Counted from the first letter of the stretch, positions 35,711 through 48,978 are shown. The stretch: 64,000 nt of DNA from Candidatus Thorarchaeota archaeon (GCA_046758445.1 JBHIAE010000005.1:1-64000); one strand, 5' to 3'. Program-made: numbers and translations. The notes: generated by a model from the letters alone, not told the origin.

Positions 35711-37042
35711 ATGGTTCGAGTCATCCCTTTCAGAGCATTCAGATATGACGAAACGAAGGTTGGAGACCTCAGTAAGGTCGTAGCTCCACCCTACGACATC
35801 ATCAAGGGTCAGAAGGTGGATGAGCTTCAGTCGCTCTCCGACTACAACATCTCTTGGATAATCAAGAACAGACCCCGAGAAGGTGACACACCCGAGAATA
35901 ATCAGTACACCAGGGCGCGTGATCTTCTGAACCAGTGGATGGAAGAGCGTATCGTGATACAGGACGAACAGGAAGCATTCTACGTCTACGGGCAGAACTT
36001 CTCAGTGAATAACCAAGATCTGTTTAGATTTGGGTTCATAGGTCTGATTCAACTTGAGGATTTTACGCAAGAGGCTCCTGAGAGTGGTATGTTCGCTGGG
36101 GTTCTTCAACACGAAGAAACCTTGCCTAAGGACATCCAAGATAGACTCAGCCTGTGTAGAGCATGCATGACACAGTTTGGACAGATATTCGTCATATATC
36201 CGGACCCTGAAGGGGAAATTGATGACGTTCTTGAGAGGCAAATGAAGCAGAAACCGACTGTCGATGTCACAGACAGCGACGGTGTCCGGCACAGGATTTG
36301 GATGGTCGATAATGCTGAAGACACGAGACTCATCACCGAATACATGAATGAGAAGTACATAATCATAGCCGATGGACACCACAGGTACAAGACTGCGCTA
36401 GCCCTCTCCAGAGAGAATCCAGACCTCGAGAGTGCGAAGTATAGAATGCTGACATTTGTGAACATCTCGAACCCAGGACTAGTCATCCTTCCGACTCATC
36501 GGGTCGTTCAGAATCTGGAGGATTTCTCGAGGGAGGAACTACTTGCCAGATTGAACCAACACTTCACTGTAAATTCGTTTGGGAAGAAGGAAGACATGTT
36601 CGCTCTTATGGCTAAGAAGTTCGATAGCGGTGCTCACACTTTTGGCCTCTTCGTGAATGACGGAATTTTCTATGCCCTCACATTGAATGATCCAGACCTA
36701 ATGGATGAGGTGCTTCCAGACAAGTCTCCTGAACATCGCGGACTTGATGTGGCTATTCTGCACTCGCTCATCCTTGATCGCATGTTAGAGATTGATAGAG
36801 AGAAGCTTGCCCAGGGTACAATGAAGGGTGGAGGTTTCGTCGTCTATGTCAAGGGTATCGGCGACGCTGTAGAGGAAGCGATTAAGTCGGTCGAGGGTGA
36901 TGCTCAAGCAGTGTTCTTCATGAACCCAACACGGATTGAGGAGGTAGAGACCATTTCAAGAAACATAGAGGTGATGCCGCAGAAGAGCACCTTCTTCTTT
37001 CCGAAAGTGTGGACGGGCTTTACAATGAACAAGTTGCGATAG
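35711..37042 (+). CDS. DUF1015 family protein
   Basis: PFRAFRY, VAPPYDII, HEET, IADGHHRY, LPTHR, MPQKSTFFFPK. Confidence 0.9.
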   Translation: MVRVIPFRAFRYDETKVGDLSKVVAPPYDIIKGQKVDELQSLSDYNISWIIKNRPREGDTPENNQYTRARDLLNQWMEERIVIQDEQEAFYVYGQNFSVNNQDLFRFGFIGLIQLEDFTQEAPESGMFAGVLQHEETLPKDIQDRLSLCRACMTQFGQIFVIYPDPEGEIDDVLERQMKQKPTVDVTDSDGVRHRIWMVDNAEDTRLITEYMNEKYIIIADGHHRYKTALALSRENPDLESAKYRMLTFVNISNPGLVILPTHRVVQNLEDFSREELLARLNQHFTVNSFGKKEDMFALMAKKFDSGAHTFGLFVNDGIFYALTLNDPDLMDEVLPDKSPEHRGLDVAILHSLILDRMLEIDREKLAQGTMKGGGFVVYVKGIGDAVEEAIKSVEGDAQAVFFMNPTRIEEVETISRNIEVMPQKSTFFFPKVWTGFTMNKLR

Positions 37043-37051
37043 GTGATTCAG

Positions 37052-38137
37052 ATGACAAAGAGAGTTTACAACTTCTATGCAGGTCCTGCAACACTACCGT
37101 TGCCCGCGCTCGAGAAGGCGCGAGAAGAGCTCCTAGACTTCGCCGGCACCGGCATGTCAATACTTGAGATCTCTCACAGATCAAAGGAATACGACAAGAT
37201 GCACAATGAAGCAACTAAACTAATACGAGAGTTGATGGAGATACCGGAAGAGTACAAGGTTCTTTGGCTTCAGGGTGGTGCATCAAGTCAGTTCTTTATG
37301 GCTCCTGTCAACTTGCAGATGCCAGGGAAACCTATGCAGTACGTGGACACGGGAACATGGTCATCGAAGGCACTGAAAGAGGCAAAGCTCTATGGAGAGG
37401 TACAGGTCGTAGCCTCGTCTGAGGATGACAACTACTCCTACATTCCAAAAGATGTAGGATTCAGTGAGAATGCAGCCTTTGCCCACATTACGAGCAACAA
37501 CACAATCTATGGGACACAATGGCAGCGATGGCCTGAAGTGCCAGACTCAGTTCCACTCGTCTGTGACATGTCTTCTGACCTCTTGGCTAGGAGAATCAAC
37601 GTGAAGGACTTCGGCGTGATCTATGCTGGTGCGCAAAAGAACCTCGGACCTGCTGGAGTCACACTTGTCGTGTTGAGAGAGGATTTAGTTGAGAGAGTGG
37701 CTGAAGATGTTCCAACACTAATGAAGTGGAAGACTGAGGTGGAAAAGAACTCGTTGTTTCATACCCCTCCGTGCTTTGCGATATACATATCCAAGCTTGC
37801 ACTTGAATACTGGAAGGAAGTCGGGGGTATTGCCAAGATAGAGAAGCAAAACAGGGAGAAGGCCAAGATTCTCTACGATGTGATTGATGGCTCAGATGGG
37901 TTCTACAGAGGACATGCGAGGGAAGACTCTAGGTCTCTCATGAACGTCACGTTTACTTTGGCGAATGCCGACCTCGAAGCCAAAGCCGTTGCTGAAGGAC
38001 TAGAGCATGACCTCGTAGGTCTGAAGGGACATCGATCCGTGGGAGGCATGAGAGCGTCCATCTACAATGCGATGACAATGGAAGGCACCAAGAAGCTAGC
38101 AGAGTTCATGACTCGTTTCAAAGAGAACAATCAGTAG
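37052..38137 (+). CDS. serC: Phosphoserine aminotransferase
   Basis: NFYAGPA, EISHRS, QGGAS, DMSS, YAGAQKNLGPAG, GHRSVGGMRASIYN; AGGTGA SD. Confidence 0.95.
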   Translation: MTKRVYNFYAGPATLPLPALEKAREELLDFAGTGMSILEISHRSKEYDKMHNEATKLIRELMEIPEEYKVLWLQGGASSQFFMAPVNLQMPGKPMQYVDTGTWSSKALKEAKLYGEVQVVASSEDDNYSYIPKDVGFSENAAFAHITSNNTIYGTQWQRWPEVPDSVPLVCDMSSDLLARRINVKDFGVIYAGAQKNLGPAGVTLVVLREDLVERVAEDVPTLMKWKTEVEKNSLFHTPPCFAIYISKLALEYWKEVGGIAKIEKQNREKAKILYDVIDGSDGFYRGHAREDSRSLMNVTFTLANADLEAKAVAEGLEHDLVGLKGHRSVGGMRASIYNAMTMEGTKKLAEFMTRFKENNQ

Positions 38138-38195: not shown

Positions 38196-38843
38196 CTAGC
38201 GGTACTGCTTTACAGTCCTCAGAAACTTCTTGACGTTCTCTGTTATGATTTCGAAACGACCTTCACTGATAGCCTTCTTGTCAGTGATGGCACTACCGAC
38301 CCCTAGAGCAAATGCTCCAGCCTCCAGAAGTGGGCCTGCCGTTTCAAGATTGACGCCGCCAGTCGGCACAAGAGGAATCTGCGGAAGCGGCGCTCTGATC
38401 GCTTTTATGTATGCCGCACCACCTAGGTTTCCACAGGGAAACACCTTGACAGCATCAGCTCCCAAAGTGTAGGCATCAAGAATCTCAGATGGGGTCATTG
38501 CGCCTGGAATGCACGCCTTTGAGTGTCTTTGGGCCGCCTCGATGAGTTCTCTTGAGTACCCCGGGCTCACAATGAATTCGCTACCTGCCTGTACGGCCTC
38601 ATCTACCATCTCTGCGTTGAGAACAGTTCCAGTGCCTATGAGTACTTTGTTTCCAAGCTTCTGAGTCAGCTTGCGGACTACCTCAGTAGCACCCGGCACA
38701 CTGAAGGTAACCTCAATGATGTTGACTCCACCTTCCAGAAACGCCTCCGCCACATTGAACGCCTTTTCGGTTGAGTCTACTCTAATGATTGGGATCAGAC
38801 CTGTTTCATACACAAGATCCATTACCTTCTTTTTGTTCCACAC
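38196..38843 (-). CDS. eda: KDPG/KHG aldolase
   Basis: PIIR, IEVT, GTGTVL, FIVSP, PGAMTPSE, KVFP (Schiff-base Lys), PTGGV. Confidence 0.92.
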   Translation of the reverse strand: MWNKKKVMDLVYETGLIPIIRVDSTEKAFNVAEAFLEGGVNIIEVTFSVPGATEVVRKLTQKLGNKVLIGTGTVLNAEMVDEAVQAGSEFIVSPGYSRELIEAAQRHSKACIPGAMTPSEILDAYTLGADAVKVFPCGNLGGAAYIKAIRAPLPQIPLVPTGGVNLETAGPLLEAGAFALGVGSAITDKKAISEGRFEIITENVKKFLRTVKQYR

Positions 38844-38855
38844 TTAAGCCAGCAC

Positions 38856-39851
38856 CTACCTGTCTATTCGGAGACCTCTCTCTCGACCCTTTATCAGCTT
38901 CTCAACTTCAGACTTGTATACAAATGCCAAATCGCCGGGGACTGAATGCTTCAGAGCAGAGAACGCTGAACCAAAGTCTACGGCTTTCTGCAGATCTTTC
39001 AGGATTAGATATCCATAGATGAAGCCGGCACTGCATGAGTCCCCTCCTCCGAGACGGTCCACAACTTCGACATCGTATGTGCGGCTTCGGTACACCTTTC
39101 CGTCCGAGTAGGCGAACACAGACCATTTGTTCTGCCATACTGATGGAGTTTCACGTAGTGTAATGACGACCACCTCAAAGCCAAACTTGTCAGTCAGCTT
39201 CTTAGCGACCTCCTCGCAGTCCTTTCCTTCAATCCCGTAGACTGTCTTTGTGTCCTCTTCAGTGGTTATCAGGATGTCAATGTGCTCTGACGCCGGTCCA
39301 GTGAACTTGTTTGCCTCCTTTGGAGTCCAGAGCTTGCCTCGGTAGTTCACATCGTATGATACTTTGCACCCCTGCTTCTGTGCCGCCGCGAGCACCTCAT
39401 TGGTTGCTTCTGCACAGGACGGACTGAGGGCCGGCGTGATTCCACTTGTGTGAAACAACTTTGTGCCTTTGAGAATGTCTTTCCAACTCACTTCCCCCGG
39501 CTTTATCTTGCTAATTGCTGATTCTCTTCGGTCATAGATGACACGGTTAGTTCTTGGAGCTGCTCCGAACTCCACGAAGTATACTCCACATCTGCTATCG
39601 GAGTCCCAGAGGATGTGTGACGTATCAACACCGTGTTCGCGCGCCTTGTTGCGAATGAAGTGACCAATTGAATTGTCGCCTAACTTGGTAACATAAGCCG
39701 ACTCGAGTCCAAGTCGGGCACAGGCAACTGCCACATTCATCTCCGCTCCCCCGGCATGTGCATCAAAGCCAGTTGTCTGTTCAAATCTCATGAAGTTGGG
39801 CGGTGAGAGTCTGAGCATGACTTCACCAAAGGTTACTACATCATATCCCAT
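38856..39851 (-). CDS. kdgK: 2-keto-3-deoxygluconate kinase (PfkB family)
   Basis: FGEVMLRL, GGAEMNVA, VIYDR, SGITPALS, DVNYR..LW, DRLGGGDS, KHSVPGD. Confidence 0.88.
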   Translation of the reverse strand: MGYDVVTFGEVMLRLSPPNFMRFEQTTGFDAHAGGAEMNVAVACARLGLESAYVTKLGDNSIGHFIRNKAREHGVDTSHILWDSDSRCGVYFVEFGAAPRTNRVIYDRRESAISKIKPGEVSWKDILKGTKLFHTSGITPALSPSCAEATNEVLAAAQKQGCKVSYDVNYRGKLWTPKEANKFTGPASEHIDILITTEEDTKTVYGIEGKDCEEVAKKLTDKFGFEVVVITLRETPSVWQNKWSVFAYSDGKVYRSRTYDVEVVDRLGGGDSCSAGFIYGYLILKDLQKAVDFGSAFSALKHSVPGDLAFVYKSEVEKLIKGRERGLRIDR

Positions 39852-39905
39852 TAGACCACTCTCGAGCGTTCAGGCAAACAAGTGGGTTGTTTAGTGGTCT
39901 AAATG
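39849..39905 (-). promoter_or_regulatory. Stem-loop leader occluding the kdgK RBS/start
   Basis: TTAGACCACT (39851-60) / AGTGGTCTAA (39893-902) 10-bp inverted repeat; inner AAACAA/TTGTTT hairpin. Confidence 0.5.
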
Positions 39906-39931
39906 TTAAATCTGTCGTCAATGATACCTTT

Positions 39932-42277
39932 CTAGCTGCTTCTCGAGAACTCCGTCCGTGCAATCACCTCATCCTGCACGAATGGATCTAGTTCTATGAA
40001 GTAAGCGCTATACCCTGCTACTCTGACTATAAGGTCTCTATGCTGCAAAGGATTGATTTTGGCATCTTCTAGAGTTTCTTTGTCGACCACATTGAATTGT
40101 ACGTGCAGTCCACCTAAGGCAAAGTAGCCCTCGATAAGACTAATGAACTTCTTCCGACTCGTGAGAGTGTCAAAGTAGTCTGGTGTGAATTTCATATTGT
40201 ACAGTGTCCCATTGTAGCAGAGTCTATGGTCCAAACGCGCCACCGACTTCATGGCCGCTGTGGGACCACGTACATCTCGATTCTGTGTTGGCGATACGCC
40301 ATCAGACAACATTATCCCTGCTTTTCTTCCATCCGGCGTTGCCCCGAGCACCTCTCCCTGGGGAATATACATAGATACCGAGAACAATGCACCATGGTAT
40401 GGGCCGTTTCTTGTAGTCATTCGGCTCTGAATTGACTTGCAGAACGCCCTGCCTGTGTCACGCGCGAGAAAGTCCACGCTCTCTATGTCGTTTCCATACT
40501 TGTCCGGATCATTCTCAAGGCGGACCCGAAGGTCCTCATGACCTTCAAAGTTGGTTGCAAGAGCATCAAGCATCTCTTCCATGGGGATACTCTTCTCTTC
40601 AAACACATGTTTCCTTAACATCGAAAGAGAATCTGCAACAATCCCAACTCCAACCCCCATTATGCCTCCGGAGTTGTATCTGACGCCTCCGTCTTGCATT
40701 GTCATTCCGTTTTCAAGGCAACCGTCAAGAAGTGCAGATATGAAGGGGGTTGGTGTCATCTTAGAAAGCATACCAGCCGCGATTCTGTCAGCTCTCGTGA
40801 GGAGTTCGATCGCATGGTCAATCTGCTTCTCATAGGCCCCCCACAGTTCATCGAACGATTTGAACTCGTTCGGATCACCAGTTTCTAGCCCTACGAGCGT
40901 TCTGCTTCGGGGGTCCCTTCCGTTGTTCAGAGTTATCTCAAGTATCTTAGGCAGATTCACATAACCGATATTCTGTCTGGCATCTGTCTTGCCTTCGATA
41001 ATTGGTTCGACACAGCCCAGAATTGAGTAGTTGTGAGCCTCATCCAGGTCTGTGCCCTTGTCAATCATCGTTGGTATTATGACCTCATCGTTGAAGATCC
41101 CTGGCATTCCAAGCCCCTTAGAGACCACATCGACAACTTTCAGCTTGAACTCTTCCGGCGTGCCTTGATGCCATCTGAAAGAAACTGTTGGTTGGGTGAC
41201 TCTCACGTTCGCCGTCACTTCGAGGACCAAGTCAGTCAGTTCATTACATACGTCTTTCCCTTCTGCGTCCTGACCCCCAATGGTCAGGTTCTGAAACATA
41301 GGGAACCCTGCAAAGGCAACACTGTAGTACTCGTTTCTCAGTTTGATGAGCGAGGCGAACTTGATCCACAGCATTTCAAGAAGGGCAACTGCATCGTCCC
41401 TTGTCAGTTCCCCTGAATCGATACTCTTCTTGTAGAGAGGATACAAGTACTGATCGAATCTACCAGTCGAAATGGAATGGCCATTTGACTCGGTCTGCAC
41501 CAACAATTGAATGAACCAGAACGACTGTATTGCCTCACGGAAGGTTCTGGCAGACTTGGCTGGCACCCTTCGACATATCTCTGCTATCTTCAGTAGCTCT
41601 TCTCTTCTGTCCGCATCTTCCTCTTGATGGGCAAGACTCTCAGCCAAGTCAGCAAACCTGTGTGCGTAGTGAATAATCCCTTCCATAGCAATCTCGACAG
41701 ACTCGTAGAAATGTTTCTGATTTGTTTCTTCGGCCCGCTTCTTTCGGTCAGATGCTTCCTCGGCAATCGCTTCAAGGCCTTCCTCTATTACTCTCTGATA
41801 ATCAACAATGACATGGCCTATTCCCGTTCCAGGAGCTCCTATCGTGAACAGTCCGGCTTTCGAAGCGCGCTGAGACTCCATCGGCATTTCTTCTTTGCAC
41901 AGCTCGGAGGTGCTCTTTCCACGCCAATACTCGAACACCTCTCTCAGTGCTTCTTTGTCTTTCTCGCCTATCTCAAATCTCTCTGTCCTTCTCTTGTTGA
42001 ATCGGTCCAACTCTTGATTGATCCATGTCCAACTGTATTCCGGGAAGATCTGACAAGAACGGGGAGTGGGTCCCATGTTTCCAACTATGATCTCTTCCGG
42101 CTCTATACGGAGTGTCATGTTGGCGAGAACATGTGAGAAAGCCTTGGCAAGTCGAATCTGTGTTGGTTCCTCTTCATGACTCATGACGTAGTCTGTGAAC
42201 CGCCTGGCTCTCTCAGATGATATTGTTGGCTGAGCCTCTAACATTCTATCGCGCAAGCGACCGGTCCGAGAGTTCAT
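39932..42277 (-). CDS. Glycyl radical enzyme (PFL-like, dehydratase/eliminase class)
   Basis: C-terminal RVAGYS glycyl loop, LGCVEP thiyl loop, ESNGHSIS, GIGHVIVDY, ATPDGR. Confidence 0.95.
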   Translation of the reverse strand: MNSRTGRLRDRMLEAQPTISSERARRFTDYVMSHEEEPTQIRLAKAFSHVLANMTLRIEPEEIIVGNMGPTPRSCQIFPEYSWTWINQELDRFNKRRTERFEIGEKDKEALREVFEYWRGKSTSELCKEEMPMESQRASKAGLFTIGAPGTGIGHVIVDYQRVIEEGLEAIAEEASDRKKRAEETNQKHFYESVEIAMEGIIHYAHRFADLAESLAHQEEDADRREELLKIAEICRRVPAKSARTFREAIQSFWFIQLLVQTESNGHSISTGRFDQYLYPLYKKSIDSGELTRDDAVALLEMLWIKFASLIKLRNEYYSVAFAGFPMFQNLTIGGQDAEGKDVCNELTDLVLEVTANVRVTQPTVSFRWHQGTPEEFKLKVVDVVSKGLGMPGIFNDEVIIPTMIDKGTDLDEAHNYSILGCVEPIIEGKTDARQNIGYVNLPKILEITLNNGRDPRSRTLVGLETGDPNEFKSFDELWGAYEKQIDHAIELLTRADRIAAGMLSKMTPTPFISALLDGCLENGMTMQDGGVRYNSGGIMGVGVGIVADSLSMLRKHVFEEKSIPMEEMLDALATNFEGHEDLRVRLENDPDKYGNDIESVDFLARDTGRAFCKSIQSRMTTRNGPYHGALFSVSMYIPQGEVLGATPDGRKAGIMLSDGVSPTQNRDVRGPTAAMKSVARLDHRLCYNGTLYNMKFTPDYFDTLTSRKKFISLIEGYFALGGLHVQFNVVDKETLEDAKINPLQHRDLIVRVAGYSAYFIELDPFVQDEVIARTEFSRSS

Positions 42278-42330
42278 CCCATGCAGTATCTCCCAGAGAG
42301 CTATTTACTCTTCCTCTTGCGGTCTTTCTT

Positions 42331-43491
42331 CTACTTGAGAAGCTTTGGAACGTAGGAATCCAACCGCTGGATGGCTTCTTCAATCACTTCAGTAGACATG
42401 GCGTAGCATATGCGCAGGAATCCTTCGCCGTACTTGCCGAAGGCAGAGCCATGGACGGTAACAACACCTGTTTCTTCCAGAAGTCTGATTGCCAAGTCCC
42501 AGCTGGCCAATCCATACCTTGAAACATCAGGGAACACATAGAAAGCTCCGCCTGGTGGACTCAGTTCTATTCCTTCTATTGCCTGAAGCCCCTTGGTAAT
42601 GGTATCACGGCGTCTTCGGAACGTATCTGTCATCCTCTTCACAGAATCTTGGGGCCCTCTTACTGCCGCCTCGGCCGCCTTCTGAGATATTGAGGTTGGC
42701 ATGGACAGGACGTGTTCTTGTAACTTCACCATACTCGATATTATCTCAGATGGCCCAGTCGAGAAACCAATTCGCCATCCAGTCATCGCGTAGGTCTTAG
42801 AGAATGAGAAGAGCGTAACAGTTCTCTCCTTCATTCCGGGCAGAGAAGCAATGAACAAGGGCTTTTCATCATCCCATCGGAACTTCTCGTATGCTTGGTC
42901 GGATAAGACCACGAGATCGTTTTCAATGGCAATCTCAGCCACTCTCTTCAGTTCCTTCGCGGGCATTGTGCCCCCTGTAGGATTGTTCGGGAAGTTGAGT
43001 ACGAGCAGCTTCGTTTTGTCTGTGATAAGGGGTTCAAGATCTTCTGCTTTGAAGGAGAACCCAAGGTCTCTCTTGAGCTGCACAGCGATACCTTTGCCGC
43101 CACACAAAGTGACATGCGCCGGGTGGCTGACAAATCCGGGATCAGGATAGATTACTTCGTCGCCGGGGTCGACAAGCACAAGGTTTGCGAGAAGCAGAGA
43201 CCCCATCCCACCACCCGTGCAGATAATCTCGGTCTTGGGATCCGCCTCTATTCCGTTGTCTCGTTTCAGTTTCTCCGCAAATGCCTCACGGACTTCCAGC
43301 ATTCCGGCATTCAACGTGTATTTTGTGTATCCCTCATCGATGGCTCTCTTGGCAGCATCTTTGATATACTGAGGTGTGTCGAAATCTGGAAGTCCAACTG
43401 TCATGTCGAGTGCGTTCTCATGTCCTTTGGCCATGTTGAACATCTTGCGAATTTCGCTTGCAACAATCATTTGGTTCCTCTGAGCGAGCAT
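42331..43491 (-). CDS. PLP-dependent aminotransferase class I/II
   Basis: GLPDF, YTLNAG, NFPNNPTG, DQAY, SFSKTYAMTGWRIG, GAFY; ATG 43491. Confidence 0.93.
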   Translation of the reverse strand: MLAQRNQMIVASEIRKMFNMAKGHENALDMTVGLPDFDTPQYIKDAAKRAIDEGYTKYTLNAGMLEVREAFAEKLKRDNGIEADPKTEIICTGGGMGSLLLANLVLVDPGDEVIYPDPGFVSHPAHVTLCGGKGIAVQLKRDLGFSFKAEDLEPLITDKTKLLVLNFPNNPTGGTMPAKELKRVAEIAIENDLVVLSDQAYEKFRWDDEKPLFIASLPGMKERTVTLFSFSKTYAMTGWRIGFSTGPSEIISSMVKLQEHVLSMPTSISQKAAEAAVRGPQDSVKRMTDTFRRRRDTITKGLQAIEGIELSPPGGAFYVFPDVSRYGLASWDLAIRLLEETGVVTVHGSAFGKYGEGFLRICYAMSTEVIEEAIQRLDSYVPKLLK

Positions 43492-43644
43492 GGGACATCT
43501 CCTCGAGCACGCGGAGCCTTGCCTCTTTATATAATATGTCAATGGGGTCCGATTCAGAGGTCAGAGATTGAAGACAATGCGTCAGAGTAGATTTAAGGCA
43601 CTTGTCGGACGTGGCGCAGTATCTCTACAAATGGAGGCCACCAT

Positions 43645-44313
43645 GTGACCAGCAAGAAGACAAAGATAATCGATAGGACCCTTAGACTGTATGTAGCAGC
43701 GCTATCCGACGCGGCTGATGAAGTTGGGATTGGAAGGGTATGTATGGATCGCGGTATTGTCCCACTGACCATCAACAAGAGGATGGCCGGATTTGCTAGA
43801 ACTGGAAAGCTAGTAAGACCTCCAGCTCAGCGGCCATATGATGAGGCACAGCTAGACATGTTCATGAGTCTCGCAACAGAGGCCCAGGTTGATGATCTGG
43901 TCGTAATCGATTCTGGAAAGGCCGATGATTGCTCTGTCTGGGGTCAGATCCTCACGAAAATCGGGATAGCAAAGGGACTAAGAGGGGCAGTCGTGGACGG
44001 GACCTCACGCGATATCGATGACATAGACAAGACAGGATTCGTAGTCTTTGCGCGTGGGTTGCATCCTGGGACCATGAGGGGACGCCTTGACATGGAGTCG
44101 ATTAGTGAGCCGATTGTTTGCGGTGGCGTGACTGTCCATCCGGGTGATCTTGTCTTTGCTGACGCTGATGGTGTTGCTGTCATTCCTCAAGACAAGATAG
44201 ATGCGGTTCTTACGCATGCCGAGGAAGTTGTAGACACAGACAGCTGGTGGGCAAAGAAGCTGGATGACGGCGAGGACCCCCACGACCTGCACAAAGAGAA
44301 ACCGATACCCTAG
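43645..44313 (+). CDS. RraA family protein (HMG/CHA aldolase-like)
   Basis: ALSDA, WGQIL, VVDGTSRD, VHPGDLVFADADGV. Confidence 0.88.
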   Translation: MTSKKTKIIDRTLRLYVAALSDAADEVGIGRVCMDRGIVPLTINKRMAGFARTGKLVRPPAQRPYDEAQLDMFMSLATEAQVDDLVVIDSGKADDCSVWGQILTKIGIAKGLRGAVVDGTSRDIDDIDKTGFVVFARGLHPGTMRGRLDMESISEPIVCGGVTVHPGDLVFADADGVAVIPQDKIDAVLTHAEEVVDTDSWWAKKLDDGEDPHDLHKEKPIP

Positions 44314-44322
44314 CAGCAACGA

Positions 44323-45453
44323 TCACAAGTCAATTGGATACCGACCTCGTTTCTCGGCGTAGTCATACATCTCCAGGACCTTCTCAGGTGTAGAGTCTGG
44401 CTGAATGTTGTGCGCAGGTGCTAGGAGATAGCCGCCTCCGGGAGCGAGTGCGTTTAGCCGTGTATCAATCTCAGATCTGACATCCTCAAGCGTACCTCGT
44501 TCAGACATTGCGCGCTGAAGATCTATGCCACCATGGAAGGTCAATCGATCTCCGTACTTCTCCTTGAGGGTAGCGGAGTCCATGCCCTTTGCCAGGGGCT
44601 GGATAGGATTCAGAATGTCTACGCCCACGTCGATCAAGTCATCAATCATGGGCTCTATCGCTCCGCAACTGTGAAAGAGAACCTTAACATTGGGAGCTCT
44701 CTTGTGAATGTCACCGTAGATCTTCTTGTGCCGCGGTTTGACAAGTTTCCGATACATTCGTGGGCTCATTATCAGTCCATCTTGATGCCCCAGATCATCG
44801 CCAACCTGTACAAGGTCAAGGTACTCACCAACCTCATCTAGAAGCACGCGGTTCATGTCGAGGGCGAGCTGCATCGCCTTTTCCATCATTGCCTCTGCAA
44901 GTTTCGTGTTTTGACCTAGATCAATCAAGAATCTGTCAAACCCACGCATGTAGTGTTCCAGGATCTCGAAGACGCCCCACGGTCCTCCTACCATTCCCAC
45001 AACTGCAGTATCGGTCTTCTCATGAAGATGCTTTGCCCATTCAACCACTCCCTCCATCCTGGAAGAATCGTCGGCGTCTGGCCACTCGTACTCCTCGATT
45101 TGCTCTACTTCTTCAAAGTCAGCCCAAGGAAAATGAGTCACTTCCCAATAGTAACCGACGTATTTTCCCCGGAATCCATACTCTGTGTCTGTGGAACCGT
45201 CAGGATAGGTCTTCATCTTGAAACTAGATGATTGTTTCATGTATACTCGACGGAAATCCACATGGAGTCGACGAAGCATCTCTTCGGAGATGTTCCAAGT
45301 TTCCATTATCCCCCACTCTTGGTCCTCTGTGGCGGTCACACCAAGGTGGTTTCGCAGACTCCTATAGGCCGCAGATGTGGTCCAATAGTCGATTGGGACT
45401 CTATCTGGTTCTTCGTGGCTTACGGCTCTATGGAATCTTTCTCTCGGCTTCAT
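44323..45453 (-). CDS. Uroporphyrinogen decarboxylase-like (URO-D/MtaA-CmuA) family protein
   Basis: RERFHRAVSHEEPDRVP, MRGF, GDDLG, HSCG, NPIQP, GGID, APAHNIQ. Confidence 0.88.
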   Translation of the reverse strand: MKPRERFHRAVSHEEPDRVPIDYWTTSAAYRSLRNHLGVTATEDQEWGIMETWNISEEMLRRLHVDFRRVYMKQSSSFKMKTYPDGSTDTEYGFRGKYVGYYWEVTHFPWADFEEVEQIEEYEWPDADDSSRMEGVVEWAKHLHEKTDTAVVGMVGGPWGVFEILEHYMRGFDRFLIDLGQNTKLAEAMMEKAMQLALDMNRVLLDEVGEYLDLVQVGDDLGHQDGLIMSPRMYRKLVKPRHKKIYGDIHKRAPNVKVLFHSCGAIEPMIDDLIDVGVDILNPIQPLAKGMDSATLKEKYGDRLTFHGGIDLQRAMSERGTLEDVRSEIDTRLNALAPGGGYLLAPAHNIQPDSTPEKVLEMYDYAEKRGRYPIDL

Positions 45454-45595: not shown

Positions 45596-45751
45596 ATGGG
45601 AAAGATGAAGGTCGCGATTCTCTGTTGTCCAGAGGATTTCAGGATGGAATCGGTTGAAATCTGGAAACCGGGCCCGAGATGGCTCCTGATAAGCGTAGGA
45701 CCTGTTAACGTGGGCAAGTATTTCGGACACGGGATGTATGAAGAATGGTAG
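45596..45751 (+). pseudogene. Remnant of a Zn-dependent alcohol/polyol dehydrogenase N-terminus
   Basis: AGGAGG SD, then MGKMKVAILCCPEDFRMESVEIWKPGPRWLLISVG resembling MKAAVL-GP-DLR-E-V--P-PG--EVL-KV; stops after 51 aa. Confidence 0.55.
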
Positions 45752-46215
45752 CACCATCTGCTGATGATGTTAGAGTAGTTGGTATGTCGACCGTTGCCTC
45801 CGCACATGTTGTCTACGTGGAAACCGTTCGGGCCGCCTTTGGTAAGAAGGGACTCGAAGCGCTGGCCGAAGCGAATCGTCTACATGGACTGGAGCTCGGG
45901 GAGCAGGGTGTCAAGGACGGAGGTCTCAGAAAGGGTGATTTGAATTCAATTCATGACTTCTTTGCAGCTGCATATCCGTACTTCGGATTTGTCCTGGAGA
46001 TTGCTGATGCATCCGATCGACTGTTGGATCTGAAAGTGACTGAATGTCCATGGATTGACACTTTCCGTACTAAGAACGCCAATGATGATATCTGCCACTG
46101 GGTCACGAAGATTGACGAAGGAATCGGTCAGGCCGTAGATCCCGGTCTCAGGATGACTCTTCCAATGTGTATGATGCGAGGAGATGACCACTGCATCTAC
46201 AGATGGGAAAAATAG
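45745..46215 (+). CDS. L-2-amino-thiazoline-4-carboxylate hydrolase/V4R-like protein
   Basis: VTECPW, IC...IDEG, LPMCMMRGDDHCIYRW. Confidence 0.75.
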   Translation: MVAPSADDVRVVGMSTVASAHVVYVETVRAAFGKKGLEALAEANRLHGLELGEQGVKDGGLRKGDLNSIHDFFAAAYPYFGFVLEIADASDRLLDLKVTECPWIDTFRTKNANDDICHWVTKIDEGIGQAVDPGLRMTLPMCMMRGDDHCIYRWEK

Positions 46216-46402
46216 CATCTGAGTAAGTCAAATCGACTCAAATCCAACAGGCATCTTTGCCTACGAGGTCCGCGGCCACGTTCCGTCTTCAAACGACTTT
46301 AAATCAAATTAAGACACACCGGAGCTCTTAATTAACACCTTCTGAATCACCAGTGATTTGAGGATGATTGTCTGCAGCTAGACACTTATGGAGAGCCTTG
46401 TC

Positions 46403-47785
46403 ATGGTCGATGTGAAGAAGATCACTCAACTTTTGTCCGATGCTACTAGTCCCGACAGGGTCACTGACAAGGACTTCGATCTCATTTCCTATAGCAGAGA
46501 TTTGAGCCCCGCGAAGCAGAAACTTCCATCTCACGTTGTACTGGCAGAAACCCGGGAGGAGATTCAGAAGATTCTTGCGATTGCGAACAAGAATGATGTC
46601 CCGGTCTATATACGGGGCGGAGGCACTTCCCATTGGGATGCTTTTTTGCCTCAGGAACCAGGCATTATGGTTGACCTAGCACGTATGAATAAGGTCCTTG
46701 AAATAAACGAGAGAGACCTTGTAGTGACAGTGCAGCCGAACTGCACCTGGGCGAAGATGGATGAAGAACTACGGAAGAGAGGCCTGACGTATCTTTGCAG
46801 TGAAGCCGGAGGCCCGGCTATGACCGTGGGCGGTTCTGTCATGAAGGCAGGTGGCGGACCACATTCCACGGCCAAGTTCGGCTTCCACGGCAACCAAGAT
46901 GTGATTTGTCTGGAGATGGTGCTACCCAATGGCGACGTTGTCCAGACTGGTTCCGCGGCTTGGCCGAGTGCAGGGAAGTTTGAGCGACAATGCCTTGGAC
47001 CAGACTTGGCTGGAATGTTTCTAGGAGCTGAAGGAATACTGGGTGTTTGCACCGAGTTGAGTCTTCGGATTCGTCCAGCCGTTGATTTCAAGGAACGATT
47101 GAGCGCAGTCTTACCCACACTTGACGATGTAGTTGAGTTTGGCCATTTCATAAACAGGCATGTGGGCGACGAGTACCTACAAGGAATCTACCTATGGGTT
47201 GCCCCAGACACCCCAGATCTCTTCTTCATAATGATGGACATCTTCGGATATGAGCCTGAGATTGTGAAGCACCGCAAGAAGAAGATACTGGACAAGATTG
47301 CTGAACTGGGTGGAGAGATTGCAGACCGTGCTCCAGCAGACGACTATTATGACCGCATTCTGACAGGGCTCACAGACTTGTTCACTGCTGGTGTCTGGCA
47401 CTTCTTTGGTGCTGGGTCTCTCAGAATAGATGACATCAAGTTCCTGTACAAGATATGGCGAGAGGAGTTACTTGAGAAACGTGGCTACACGAAGGCTGGA
47501 TTCGGTGGACAGGTCCTACCACGAAGATGGCTGGCTTTCATGGTCACTAACTACAAGGAGCCAGAGGAATGGGAGGAACTTGTGAAGATGGCCGACGAGA
47601 TCGACGAGATGACCTTGAAAGGCCCGGTAGTACCCTACGGAGTGGGAGGACGAGACGGGCTTCGCCAATTCGTGGCTTCGCATGATACAGGCTACTATCG
47701 ATTGCTCAAGACACTCAAGCAGACTTTGGACCCAAAGAACATTCTACAGCGAGGCATATTCATCCCGGAGGAGGAGTTGCAGTGA
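46403..47785 (+). CDS. FAD-binding oxidoreductase, GlcD/D-lactate dehydrogenase-like
   Basis: RGGGTS, VDLARMNKVLEI, TVGG, LEMVLPNG, GAEGILG, LDPKNIL. Confidence 0.88.
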   Translation: MVDVKKITQLLSDATSPDRVTDKDFDLISYSRDLSPAKQKLPSHVVLAETREEIQKILAIANKNDVPVYIRGGGTSHWDAFLPQEPGIMVDLARMNKVLEINERDLVVTVQPNCTWAKMDEELRKRGLTYLCSEAGGPAMTVGGSVMKAGGGPHSTAKFGFHGNQDVICLEMVLPNGDVVQTGSAAWPSAGKFERQCLGPDLAGMFLGAEGILGVCTELSLRIRPAVDFKERLSAVLPTLDDVVEFGHFINRHVGDEYLQGIYLWVAPDTPDLFFIMMDIFGYEPEIVKHRKKKILDKIAELGGEIADRAPADDYYDRILTGLTDLFTAGVWHFFGAGSLRIDDIKFLYKIWREELLEKRGYTKAGFGGQVLPRRWLAFMVTNYKEPEEWEELVKMADEIDEMTLKGPVVPYGVGGRDGLRQFVASHDTGYYRLLKTLKQTLDPKNILQRGIFIPEEELQ

Positions 47786-48978
47786 GAATCGAGGAATTCA
47801 AGGATATGATCTATGCCTGCGGCAGGTGCAACTTCTGTAGAGGCACAGATTTCAATGAGCGCTGCCCAGAGGTGTTCACTCAGTTGTGGGAATCATCCAC
47901 ACTCCGCGGTCGGATGGCGATTGCCAGAGGAATCCTTGAGGGTCAACTTGACTATTCAGACGACTTGGCTGAGCGCATCTTCGGATGCTTCATGTGTGGG
48001 CGGTGCAGAGAGGAGTGCAAGAAGGCTGCTCAGATTGATGCTATTGCCATCACTAAAGCAATGCGAGCAGATTTTGTCGATAAAGGTGTCAAGATTCCCG
48101 AGGGTGGCACCAACATGGTAGATACTGCCATAGACTCAGGTAACATCTTCGCTGACACTCCTGCTAGACATACGAAGTGGGCTGAGGGATTGACATTCAA
48201 GGAGGGCTCAGGGACTCTATTCTATCCCGGATGTCTGGCAAGTCATAGATTCAAAGAGAAGACTAACATCTTGGTCAAAGTCCTACAAGCCGCGGGATAC
48301 GAGCTCGACTTCCTGGGCGACGACCAGACATGCTGCGGTACACCATTTTGGATATCAGGAAAGGTCGGGAATGCGAAGGAATGGGCCGAGAACTACCTCA
48401 AGAAGCTGAATGCACGCGGAGTGAAGGAGATCATTACTCCATGTCCGAGCTGCTTCAGAGCTTTTGATGAAGAGTATCCAGCTCTGTTGGGACTGGAGGA
48501 GTTTCCAATCCGAATCAGGCACACCAGTGAAGTGCTCGAAGAGATAGTGGACAAGAAGAAGCTGAAGTTCAAGGTTTCTCTTGACAAGCGTGTCACCTAT
48601 CACGATCCATGTGAGATTGGACGGTATAGAGAGATCTATGATCCTGGTAGGAAGGTTTTGTCCTCACTGCCAGGAGTAGAGTATGTGGAAATGTCAAGAT
48701 ACCGTGAGGAGGCATTCTGTTGCGGTGGAGGTGGCGGTGTCAAGATCATGTACGAGAATCACTCAAACAAAGTCGCCGAGGAACGAATCAATGACTTCAT
48801 CGACACGGAGGCCGACATTCTAACTACAGTTTGTCCTGCCTGCGAAATGAACCTTACTCATGGCACCTATGCGGCGGATGTCGAGGCGAGAGTTCTGGAC
48901 ATTGCTGAACTGATTGCGGTTGCCGCAGGAATTGTAGACAAGGGAATCCTTGAGCCAGACTATTTCCCAGAAGATTGA
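47782..48978 (+). CDS. (Fe-S)-binding CCG-domain protein, GlcF/HdrD-like
   Basis: CGRCNFC, CFMCGRC, YPGC, CCG, CPSC, HDPC, CCGGGGG, CPAC; GTGA overlap with the upstream gene. Confidence 0.9.
   Translation: MRIEEFKDMIYACGRCNFCRGTDFNERCPEVFTQLWESSTLRGRMAIARGILEGQLDYSDDLAERIFGCFMCGRCREECKKAAQIDAIAITKAMRADFVDKGVKIPEGGTNMVDTAIDSGNIFADTPARHTKWAEGLTFKEGSGTLFYPGCLASHRFKEKTNILVKVLQAAGYELDFLGDDQTCCGTPFWISGKVGNAKEWAENYLKKLNARGVKEIITPCPSCFRAFDEEYPALLGLEEFPIRIRHTSEVLEEIVDKKKLKFKVSLDKRVTYHDPCEIGRYREIYDPGRKVLSSLPGVEYVEMSRYREEAFCCGGGGGVKIMYENHSNKVAEERINDFIDTEADILTTVCPACEMNLTHGTYAADVEARVLDIAELIAVAAGIVDKGILEPDYFPED

What the first reader, a model, noticed from the sequence alone, without database searches (positions are those of the whole stretch)
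38196..43491. Glycyl radical enzyme directly upstream of kdgK-eda: candidate radical sugar-acid dehydratase feeding an Entner-Doudoroff-type route
Seen: four co-oriented genes, aminotransferase > GRE > kdgK > eda (gaps 53, 80 and 12 bp), and no IlvD/Edd, UxuA/UxaA or enolase-type aldonate dehydratase in the window. The GRE keeps motifs typical of glycerol/propanediol dehydratases (GxGH, ESNGHSIS, GCVEP). Its substrate-pocket segments differ: FAGFPMFQN, DARQNIG where those enzymes have roughly GWHD, and LFSVSMYIP (reference motifs recalled from memory). Established chemistry: GRE diol dehydratases abstract H from a carbinol carbon and expel the neighbouring OH, giving C=O/CH2. Applied to C2/C3 of gluconate or another hexonate this yields 2-keto-3-deoxy-hexonate, the KdgK substrate. 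Inference: an oxygen-sensitive radical aldonate dehydratase (or amino-sugar-acid lyase, given the aminotransferase), with the new Arg possibly binding a carboxylate. I know of no characterised GRE with this activity.
Basis: partly seen in the sequence, partly recalled or inferred. Interest (0 to 1): 0.88.

Follow-up and report, generated by a model that had tools for sequence, protein, structure and literature searches.

The report
Asgard glycyl-radical enzyme beside KDG genes
An uncultured Asgard (Thorarchaeota-type) archaeon carries an uncharacterised oxygen-sensitive glycyl radical enzyme in one gene cluster with the kinase and aldolase of the Entner-Doudoroff sugar-acid route, so the radical enzyme may supply their substrate, which would be a new reaction but is not yet shown.

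Summary
On the minus strand lie an aminotransferase, a glycyl radical enzyme (GRE), a KDG-type kinase and a KDPG-type aldolase, with gaps of 53, 80 and 12 bp. All the quoted motifs are present.

**The GRE**
- It is a CXE-type 1,2-eliminase. It keeps the catalytic Cys, Glu and His of glycerol dehydratase and the glycine radical site.
- It reaches no curated equivalog cut-off and lacks the HypD-specific residues.
- It forms an isolated clade: 67-100% identity within one Asgard family, and at most 44% to anything else among 1.84 billion representatives.
- Its pocket is invariant across 120 members (A148, F328, D432, R434, N436, F632, V634).

**Link to kdgK-eda**
- The four genes are contiguous in about 40 genomes.
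- Among 38 genomes at least 90% complete, 28 have both the GRE and Eda, 10 have neither, and none is discordant.
- In one genus the GRE lies elsewhere in the genome. One member there has nonsense codons in both the GRE and kdgK; another lacks both.
- The window's genome has no IlvD/Edd, UxuA, UxaA, UxaC, KduI or enolase-type dehydratase.

**Cautions**
- The substrate is unknown.
- The pocket is more hydrophobic than that of glycerol dehydratase.
- The nearest bacterial relatives sit in amino-acid-type contexts.
- The synteny is confined to one family.

The parts
42331..43491 (-). Class I aminotransferase, first gene of the cluster. The ORF is open to a TTG at 43542; the likely start is the ATG at 43491.
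   Evidence: PF00155 242 bits. Best solved relatives are the Pyrococcus horikoshii aromatic/aspartate aminotransferases 1DJU and 1GD9, 342 bits. Orthologues of 57-86% identity lie directly upstream of the GRE in relatives. A separate 35-38% paralogue is present in nearly all family genomes searched.
39932..42277 (-). Glycyl radical enzyme of 781 aa, a CXE-type 1,2-eliminase of unknown substrate.
   Evidence: Pfam and NCBIfam. Best solved relative is glycerol dehydratase 1R8W at 678 bits, against 1250-1790 bits within its own clade. Isolated clade.
41003..41017 (-). Cys loop GCVEP (C422 thiyl radical site, E424 catalytic base).
   Evidence: Invariant in 120 clade members.
40970..40984 (-). Clade-specific pocket strand D432-A-R434-Q-N436. 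It replaces E-G-W-H-D447 of glycerol dehydratase.
   Evidence: Alignment to 1R8W. D432, R434 and N436 are invariant in 120 members. The D-x-R motif is shared with the nearest bacterial clusters P0121, P0126 and P0153.
40010..40024 (-). Glycine radical loop RVAGY (G755).
   Evidence: PF01228 110 bits.
38856..39851 (-). PfkB kinase of the 2-keto-3-deoxygluconate kinase type.
   Evidence: Best solved relative is Thermotoga maritima KDG kinase 2AFB, 273 bits. In the alignment to Thermus KDG kinase 1V19, the positions recalled as binding KDG (G34, Y89, Y103, R105, I134, R167, D251) are all conserved (the residue list is from memory).
38196..38843 (-). Eda-type KDPG/KHG aldolase.
   Evidence: TIGR01182 201 bits. 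Best natural solved relative is T. maritima KDPG aldolase 1WA3/1VLW. The lysine motif VKVFP and the motifs PTGGV and GVGSA are kept.
43645..44313 (+). RraA-like protein (HMG/CHA-aldolase family), divergent neighbour and accessory part of the island.
   Evidence: PF03737 105 bits. Adjacent in most genomes that carry the cluster. Not found in G005 and G063, which have the four core genes.
44323..45453 (-). URO-D/MtaA-like protein, a conserved neighbour of unknown role.
   Evidence: PF01208 103 bits. Syntenic in L012, L014-L016 and L023-L026.
45745..48978 (+). ATC_hydrolase-like protein (45745-46215), then a GlcD-like FAD protein (46388-47785) and a CCG iron-sulfur protein (47782-48978). These are frequent neighbours.
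   Evidence: Syntenic in L014 and L023-L025.

Best explanation
The GRE is an oxygen-sensitive radical 1,2-eliminase that belongs functionally to the kdgK-eda pair. It probably makes their 2-keto-3-deoxy sugar-acid substrate.

**Proposed steps**
1. The genome's single activase, encoded elsewhere, installs the radical on G755. The radical passes to C422.
2. The thiyl radical abstracts H from a carbinol (or amino-bearing) carbon next to the carboxylate: C2 of a hexonate or of a 2-amino-2-deoxy-hexonate.
3. E424 deprotonates that group, and H155 protonates the leaving group on C3. The leaving group is OH, or possibly an ether oxygen as in 3,6-anhydrogalactonate.
4. The C3 radical takes H back from C422, giving KDG or KDGal.
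5. The kinase phosphorylates C6. Eda cleaves the product to pyruvate and glyceraldehyde-3-phosphate.
6. The aminotransferase most simply converts pyruvate to alanine, or links the route to amino-acid pools.

**Shown:** gene order, family assignments, the catalytic triad, clade isolation, co-inheritance with kdgK/eda, and no match to the canonical KDG-forming families searched in this 92.7%-complete genome.

**Inferred:** the substrate, the site of H abstraction, the order of the kinase and GRE steps, and the role of R434 as an anion binder.
For: - Tight co-oriented spacing of 53, 80 and 12 bp.
- AT>GRE>KdgK>Eda is contiguous in about 40 genomes of the family, by coordinates.
- Among 38 family genomes at least 90% complete, 28 have both the GRE orthologue and Eda, 10 have neither, and none is discordant. 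Gains or losses occur within genera g6, g12 and g14.
- In genus g6 the GRE is unlinked. G281 has both intact. G055 has 3 in-frame stops in the GRE and 2 in kdgK at two different loci, with the aminotransferase intact. G075 (98% complete) lacks both.
- No IlvD/Edd, UxuA, UxaA, UxaC, Mannitol_dh, SGL or KduI match and no enolase-type dehydratase in the own genome.
- C422, E424 and H155 are retained. They correspond to C433, E435 and H164 of glycerol dehydratase, whose roles are given in PMC13450708.
- The pocket differs from glycerol and propanediol dehydratases and is invariant in 120 members, including a new Arg.
- The kinase and aldolase look like genuine KDG kinase and KDPG aldolase.
- The genome's other two GREs lie among housekeeping genes.
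Against: - No chemical or structural evidence identifies the substrate.
- No characterised GRE acts on a sugar acid (PMC13450708; literature searches).
- Ordinary acid-base dehydratases handle aldonates, so the need for radical chemistry is unexplained.
- Compared with glycerol dehydratase the pocket loses polar side chains (N156A, Y339F, Y640F, S642V; F328 and V634 match propanediol dehydratase). This fits a less hydroxylated substrate better.
- The nearest bacterial relatives (P0121, P0126, P0153) sit beside P5C reductases, DAO-type oxidases, an M20 peptidase and saccharopine dehydrogenase, not sugar-acid genes.
- In genus g6 AT>KdgK>Eda are contiguous without the GRE.
- The kdgK-eda pair stands alone in Terriglobia and in a Ranarchaeia relative.
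- All the synteny lies in one family, so the genomes are not independent.
- No transporter or upstream dehydrogenase is consistently linked.
Confidence: 0.4

Rival explanations
1. The GRE is a diol-type dehydratase acting on a terminal 1,2-diol that carries a distal anionic or hydrophobic group, in the manner of glycerol, propanediol or DHPS dehydratases. Its place next to kdgK-eda reflects shared descent within one family or only a loose metabolic relation. It does not make KDG.
For: - The core glycerol-dehydratase machinery (H155, H267, S268, F322, C422, E424) is intact, and glycerol dehydratase is the best solved match.
- F328 and V634 equal the propanediol-dehydratase residues at those positions in the alignment to 5I2A.
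- The remodelling is concentrated at the end of the pocket that (from memory) holds C3 of glycerol, which fits a longer tail on an otherwise GD-like diol.
- The GRE is unlinked in genus g6 and in L013.
- kdgK-eda is a self-contained module elsewhere.
Against: - There is no aldehyde dehydrogenase, alcohol dehydrogenase or microcompartment gene beside it, as diol-dehydratase GREs usually have.
- Co-occurrence with kdgK/eda has no discordant case, including where the genes are unlinked, and G055 shows joint nonsense mutations.
- The W-H-D motif shared by glycerol dehydratase, propanediol dehydratase and 9RCO is replaced by R-Q-N.
Confidence: 0.27
2. The GRE acts on an amino-acid-like substrate, such as a hydroxylated or cyclic amino acid or an amino-sugar acid. 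The aminotransferase, Eda (acting as a 4-hydroxy-2-oxo-acid aldolase) and the RraA-like aldolase form a route for 4-hydroxy-2-oxo acids derived from amino acids.
For: - The aminotransferase is the first gene of the cluster. Its orthologue is specific to the island, distinct from the housekeeping paralogue.
- The wider GRE clade (support 0.99) contains bacterial enzymes in proline, hydroxyproline or amino-acid-type contexts and shares the D-x-R motif.
- Neighbours include an RraA-like aldolase and a GlcD/CCG 2-hydroxy-acid oxidoreductase pair.
- Eda-family enzymes also cleave 4-hydroxy-2-oxoglutarate (family knowledge).
Against: - The HypD-defining residues D278, S334 and D339 (PMC7077986) correspond to H267, F322 and F328 or its neighbour here, by transfer through glycerol-dehydratase numbering.
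- The kinase has no role in a 4-hydroxyglutamate-type route, yet it keeps the KDG-binding residues.
- The best solved aminotransferase relatives are broad aromatic/aspartate enzymes.
- The aminotransferase orthologue occurs alone in G164 and G257, and RraA was not found in G005 and G063.
Confidence: 0.2
3. The GRE is an alkyl- or benzylsuccinate synthase, or a pyruvate formate-lyase, as public records name members of this clade and as was proposed for Asgard GREs.
For: Sources name 70-83% identical homologues 'benzylsuccinate synthase alpha subunit' or 'formate C-acetyltransferase'. PMC8163825 proposes Ass/Bss for GREs of Hermodarchaeota and Thorarchaeota.
Against: - It has the CXE eliminase motif and a single Cys, not the double Cys of PFL.
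- It scores 678 bits to glycerol dehydratase against 315 to BSS alpha, 296 to MasD and 148 to PFL.
- TIGR01255 (PFL) scores 152 bits against a cut-off of 994.
- No BSS small-subunit genes lie beside it.
Confidence: 0.02

Closest known systems
B12-independent glycerol dehydratase (Clostridium butyricum DhaB1, PDB 1R8W/1R9D)
   Same: Best solved match: 678 bits over the full length. It shares the Gly loop, the GCVEP Cys loop, His164, the His281-Ser282 motif (ESNGHS) and Phe333. The radical 1,2-elimination machinery is therefore presumably the same.
   Different: Only about 40% identical. N156A, Y339F, W445R, H446Q, D447N, Y640F and S642V. No activase or 1,3-propanediol genes adjacent. Archaeal. 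Clustered with kdgK-eda.
GRE 1,2-propanediol dehydratase (Roseburia inulinivorans, PDB 5I2A)
   Same: 658 bits. Phe and Val at the positions aligned with F328 and V634.
   Different: It keeps G-W-H-D where this enzyme has A-R-Q-N. It carries an insertion that this enzyme lacks. It is encoded in microcompartment loci with aldehyde dehydrogenase (family knowledge), which are missing here.
trans-4-hydroxy-L-proline dehydratase HypD (PDB 6VXC/6VXE)
   Same: A CXE eliminase that removes a hydroxyl beta to the abstraction site in a carboxylate-bearing substrate. It is the best NCBIfam equivalog model hit (624 bits). The nearest bacterial relatives of the clade lie beside P5C reductase genes.
   Different: Below the 1100-bit cut-off. 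The HypD-specific D278, S334 and D339 (PMC7077986) are not matched.
YbiW/PflD, 1,5-anhydrohexitol-6-phosphate GREs of E. coli (PDB 8YJN/8YJO)
   Same: GREs that act on sugar derivatives. Their keto-deoxy product goes to an aldolase (PMC13450708). This is the closest precedent for the logic of a GRE feeding an aldolase.
   Different: 510-534 bits only. The substrates are phosphorylated anhydro-alditols, not acids. They cleave a ring C-O bond. The downstream aldolase belongs to a different family.
Semi-phosphorylative Entner-Doudoroff / KDG route (Thermotoga maritima KdgK TM0067 with Eda TM0066; archaeal gluconate dehydratase routes)
   Same: The kinase and aldolase here are the closest solved relatives of the T. 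maritima pair. The predicted end of the route, KDG to KDPG to pyruvate plus GAP, is the same.
   Different: Known routes make KDG with enolase-superfamily, IlvD/Edd, UxuA or UxaA dehydratases. None was found in this genome. A radical enzyme occupies the upstream position.

Membership tests
Glycyl radical enzyme superfamily (PFL-like) | PFL-like barrel plus a C-terminal glycine radical domain with the RVxG motif | tested here: met
   PF02901 730 bits, PF01228 110 bits; RVAGY with G755.
Glycyl radical enzyme superfamily (PFL-like) | A cognate radical-SAM activase is available | tested here: met
   One TIGR02494 activase above its cut-off (318 bits) on contig C43, unlinked, with a ferredoxin-like insert. 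Whether it activates this GRE cannot be tested here.
GRE 1,2-eliminases (CXE class) | A single catalytic Cys followed by Glu two residues later (CXE) on the Cys loop | tested here: met
   GCVEP, with C422 and E424 invariant in 120 clade members. The definition is from PMC13450708.
GRE glycerol / 1,2-propanediol dehydratases | The conserved G-W-H-D strand after the Cys loop (D447 of glycerol dehydratase) and the Asn156/Tyr339/Tyr640 or Phe/Val pocket | tested here: not met
   The strand reads A-R-Q-N, and N156 is replaced by A. Glycerol dehydratase, propanediol dehydratase and 9RCO all show GWHD in the same alignments. The ligand roles of these residues are recalled from memory.
HypD (trans-4-hydroxy-L-proline dehydratase) | NCBIfam equivalog score of at least 1100; strictly conserved D278, S334 and D339 | tested here: not met
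   624 bits. The corresponding positions are H267, F322 and F328 or its neighbour, by transfer through glycerol-dehydratase numbering.
CutC, HpfG/HpsG, IAD, HPAD, PFL (NCBIfam equivalogs) | Score above the curated equivalog cut-off | tested here: not met
   CutC 580 of 1050, HpfG 614 of 1000, HpsG 576 of 1000, IAD 456 of 1100, HPAD 362 of 1150, PFL 152 of 994.
X-succinate synthases (Ass/Bss) | Cys loop without the CXE glutamate; accessory small subunits; close similarity to BssA or MasD | tested here: not met
   CXE is present. 315 and 296 bits to BSS and MasD against 678 to glycerol dehydratase. No small ORFs of that kind are adjacent.
2-keto-3-deoxygluconate kinase (PfkB) | PfkB fold with the KDG-binding Tyr/Arg set and the catalytic GxGD aspartate | tested here: met
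   273 bits to T. maritima KDG kinase. The seven Thermus KDGK positions are conserved in the alignment. The residue list is recalled from memory. All NCBIfam equivalog cut-offs were missed.
KDPG/KHG aldolase (Eda) | Class I aldolase with the Schiff-base Lys and the phosphate-binding Gly-Gly and Ser motifs | tested here: met
   TIGR01182 201 of 156. VKVFP, PTGGV and GVGSA are aligned with T. maritima KDPG aldolase. KDPG versus KDPGal versus KHG preference was not tested.

The most novel reading that the evidence does not exclude
Thorarchaeota-type Asgard archaea run a modified Entner-Doudoroff-type route in which a glycyl radical enzyme replaces the acid-base sugar-acid dehydratase, forming KDG (or KDPG) from a hexonate, a 2-amino-hexonate or an anhydro-hexonate. 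This would be the first function assigned to an archaeal PFL-like GRE and the first GRE acting on a sugar acid.
Probability: 0.35. Interest if true: 0.88.

Novelty: new variant of a known kind. Interest (0 to 1): 0.68.

Why it matters
- A June 2026 review states that no archaeal PFL-like GRE has a characterised function, and that whole GRE clades lack experimental validation (PMC13450708).
- This clade is well defined and abundant in sediment Asgard genomes. It comes with a ready-made coupled assay, because its own neighbours KdgK and Eda convert the predicted product to pyruvate.
- If the prediction holds, it adds a reaction class (radical dehydration or elimination on a sugar acid) to GRE chemistry. 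It also adds a strictly anaerobic entry to the Entner-Doudoroff lower branch.
- It would revise metabolic reconstructions of Asgard archaea, which currently label these genes as pyruvate formate-lyase or as hydrocarbon-activating succinate synthases.
- If the prediction fails, the clade is still an uncharacterised eliminase with a distinctive D-x-R-x-N pocket.

Tried and rejected
- **Literature.** Searches for a GRE linked to KDG, KDPG aldolase or sugar acids found nothing relevant. The Asgard microcompartment preprint concerns DERA-type metabolosomes, not this locus.
- **PDB 9RCO.** It is a GWHD-type GRE cited only in a proteolysis study and is not informative.
- **Insertion in genus g4.** The gene inserted between the GRE and kdgK is a PAS histidine kinase, which gives no clue to the substrate.
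- **MDR zinc dehydrogenase.** One with a glucose-dehydrogenase C-terminal domain lies near the island in L012 and L026. It scores nearest to Tdh and IolM, below their cut-offs, and has no orthologue in this genome. It was not used as evidence for a glucose-to-gluconate step.
- **G025.** There kdgK-eda follows two HGD-D and two BcrAD genes, another radical-enzyme family. A Ranarchaeia relative lacks this arrangement, so I treated it as coincidence.
- **Terriglobia.** The contexts of the 60%-identical kdgK-eda pair vary and show no dehydratase, so they do not reveal the sugar.
- **Out-group clusters.** The ten scanned with NCBIfam are all uncharacterised.
- **In-frame stops.** Single stops reported inside several orthologues are read-through upstream of shorter N-termini, not breaks. 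Only G055 is truly broken.
- **Not done.** No structure prediction or docking was run, because the tools return no coordinates and no sugar-acid ligands.
Full report
**Observation.** The window is contig C5 of a 3.25-Mb, 92.7%-complete metagenome-assembled genome. Four co-oriented genes lie on the minus strand:
- a class I aminotransferase (42331-43491; the ORF is open to 43542, but orthologues and an ATG with a GGAG upstream point to 43491);
- a 781-aa glycyl radical enzyme (39932-42277);
- a PfkB kinase (38856-39851);
- an Eda-type aldolase (38196-38843).

The gaps are 53, 80 and 12 bp. Sources name the closest homologues as Thorarchaeota, Hermodarchaeota or Promethearchaeota, so this is an Asgard archaeon.

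**What the GRE is.** It has the PFL-like barrel and the glycine radical domain (RVAGY, G755). Its Cys loop GCVEP carries a single Cys with Glu two residues on. This is the CXE signature that a 2026 review gives for all C-O, C-N and C-S cleaving GRE 1,2-eliminases.
- Against solved structures the order is glycerol dehydratase (678 bits), propanediol dehydratase (658), 9RCO (632), CutC (616), PflD (534), YbiW (510), HypD (503), HplG (467), IslA (388), BSS (315) and PFL (148).
- It passes only the broad TIGR01774 subfamily model and misses every equivalog cut-off.
- The residues the review assigns to catalysis in glycerol dehydratase (C433, E435 as base, H164 as acid) are kept as C422, E424 and H155. 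H281-S282 and F333 are kept too.
- These positions differ: N156 to A148, Y339 to F328, W445-H446-D447 to R434-Q435-N436, Y640 to F632, and S642 to V634.
- F328 and V634 equal the propanediol-dehydratase residues in the same alignment.
- The HypD-specific D278, S334 and D339 (PMC7077986) are not matched.
- Naming it a benzylsuccinate synthase or a formate acetyltransferase, as public records do for 70-83% identical homologues and as PMC8163825 argued for Asgard GREs, conflicts with the CXE motif and with the score ranking.

**An isolated, isofunctional-looking clade.**
- Among 301 Asgard genomes, orthologues of 67-100% identity occur only in the window's own GTDB family. The next matches drop to 42% or less.
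- An exhaustive HMMER search of 1.84 billion 50%-identity representatives found one cluster for the clade (P0011, 77%) and then nothing above 44%.
- In a tree the clade is monophyletic (support 1.0) on a stem of 0.43 substitutions per site. Its sister is P0121 (support 0.67), inside a group with P0126, P0153 and P0179 (support 0.99).
- Across 120 members the pocket positions A148, H155, H267, S268, F328, C422, E424, D432, R434, N436, F632, V634, M636, Y637 and G755 are all 99-100% conserved.
- The D-x-R motif is shared with P0121, P0126 and P0153.

**Is the link to kdgK-eda real?** By coordinates, aminotransferase, GRE, kinase and aldolase are contiguous in about 40 family genomes (loci L012, L014, L023-L026).
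- In genus g4 a PAS histidine kinase is inserted between the GRE and kdgK.
- Among the 38 family genomes at least 90% complete, 28 have both the GRE orthologue and Eda, 10 have neither, and none is discordant. Both states occur within genera g6, g12 and g14, so the unit was gained or lost several times. KdgK follows the same pattern.
- Because the genes are adjacent, one deletion can remove all of them. The informative case is therefore genus g6, where aminotransferase, kdgK and eda are contiguous and the GRE lies elsewhere, beside thermosome and oxidoreductase genes (L017, L019 and L013).
- Within g6, G281 has both loci intact. G075 (98% complete) lacks both.
- In G055 the GRE carries three in-frame stops (residues 76, 230, 606) and kdgK carries two (residues 14, 218). 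The aminotransferase and the neighbouring genes are intact. Joint decay at two loci argues for a functional dependence, although it rests on one genome.
- The own genome gave no match to ILVD_EDD, UxuA, UxaA, UxaC, Mannitol_dh_C, SGL or KduI. Its only MR_MLE-like hit is enolase. The kinase and aldolase therefore have no known supplier of KDG.

**The downstream enzymes.**
- The kinase is most like T. maritima KDG kinase (273 bits). It conserves the positions I recall as KDG ligands in Thermus KDG kinase.
- The aldolase is most like T. maritima KDPG aldolase. It keeps the lysine and phosphate-binding motifs.
- The pair is about 60% identical to Terriglobia pairs that stand alone in varied contexts. 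It is a mobile two-gene module, probably exchanged between Acidobacteriota and Asgard archaea.

**The aminotransferase.**
- Its orthologue is specific to the island. A 35-38% paralogue is present in nearly all family genomes searched.
- It also occurs alone in G164 and G257.
- Its best solved relatives are the broad aromatic/aspartate aminotransferases of Pyrococcus.
- The simplest role is converting the pyruvate made by Eda to alanine, but an amino-substrate role cannot be excluded.

**Mechanism proposed.** The thiyl radical abstracts H from the carbon next to the carboxylate. E424 deprotonates its hydroxyl (or amino) group. H155 protonates the leaving group on the next carbon. Return of the H atom gives a 2-keto-3-deoxy acid, which the kinase and aldolase convert to pyruvate and glyceraldehyde-3-phosphate. 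This is the standard eliminase mechanism (PMC13450708) applied to a new substrate class. The catalytic residues are shown; the substrate is inferred. R434 and N436 lie two residues apart on the strand that carries D447 in glycerol dehydratase, so both should face the pocket. R434 may bind a carboxylate or a phosphate.

**Cautions.**
- The pocket is less polar than that of glycerol dehydratase.
- The nearest bacterial relatives sit next to P5C reductases, DAO-type oxidases, an M20 peptidase and saccharopine dehydrogenase.
- No transporter or sugar dehydrogenase is consistently linked.
- All the synteny comes from one family.

I therefore put 0.40 on the KDG-forming reading, 0.27 on a GD-like terminal-diol dehydratase that is only loosely related to kdgK-eda, 0.20 on an amino-acid-type substrate, and 0.02 on the succinate-synthase or PFL annotations.

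**Novelty and verdict.** The review lists six C-O cleaving GRE eliminases, none acting on a sugar acid, and says no archaeal PFL-like GRE has a known function. This is a new variant of a known kind: a known radical mechanism in an uncharacterised clade, with a testable and unusual pathway context. Its interpretation is partly supported, and its interest score is somewhat high for evidence that is genomic only.

Earlier scan notes on this stretch were first-reader notes only and added no tests.

Noticed in passing
L020 6130-8472 and L018 8046-9038 (genome G055, contigs C15 and C6): In one relative the unlinked GRE orthologue has three in-frame stop codons and kdgK has two. The aminotransferase between them and all the flanking genes are intact. 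This looks like pathway decay caught in progress.
   Followed up: yes
L035 2598-10956 (genome G025; sources name its kinase homologues Ranarchaeia): A 61%/50% identical kdgK-eda pair lies just downstream of two HGD-D genes, two BcrAD/BadFG ATPase genes and an HpcH/HpaI aldolase. This is a second kind of oxygen-sensitive radical or reductase system next to kdgK-eda. A Ranarchaeia relative (L042) lacks this arrangement.
   Followed up: partly
G000 contigs C2:47994-50336 (L001), C39:5740-7677 (L003) and C43:9601-10467 (L004): The genome has two more GRE paralogues. One lacks the CXE glutamate. The other has an F-T-S-S-D-A-L strand. Both lie among housekeeping genes (archease, ribosomal protein L3, asparaginase, thioredoxin). 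A single activase lies beside a GNAT gene, unlinked to any GRE.
   Followed up: partly
L015 5219-8650 and L016 7772-11215 (genus g4): A PAS-rich sensor histidine kinase of about 1145 aa is inserted between the GRE and kdgK in two genomes. It may be a dedicated regulator of the cluster.
   Followed up: partly
L043/L044 2974-9029 (Terriglobales): A bacterial kdgK about 60% identical to the Asgard ones lies near an RraA-like gene, an MDR zinc dehydrogenase with a glucose-dehydrogenase C-terminal domain, and aldehyde dehydrogenase genes. The RraA-like and MDR genes also flank the Asgard island in L012 and L026. This hints at an older association and at transfer between Acidobacteriota and Asgard archaea.
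   Followed up: partly
window 35711-38137: DUF1015 is immediately followed by serC, convergent with eda. The pair is conserved in the same-genus genome (L026 5073-7496). It appears unrelated to the GRE cluster.
   Followed up: no
proteins P0002, P0012, P0061 and others: Public records name members of this GRE clade 'formate C-acetyltransferase' or 'benzylsuccinate synthase alpha subunit'. Both names conflict with the CXE eliminase motif and are likely to mislead metabolic reconstructions of Asgard archaea.
   Followed up: yes
L049-L051 (bacterial contigs carrying P0153): Three tandem GRE genes with an activase, a MutL/B12-binding pair, two P5C reductase genes and a 2-hydroxyacid dehydrogenase. 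This is an uncharacterised multi-GRE amino-acid cluster in the sister group of the Asgard clade.
   Followed up: no
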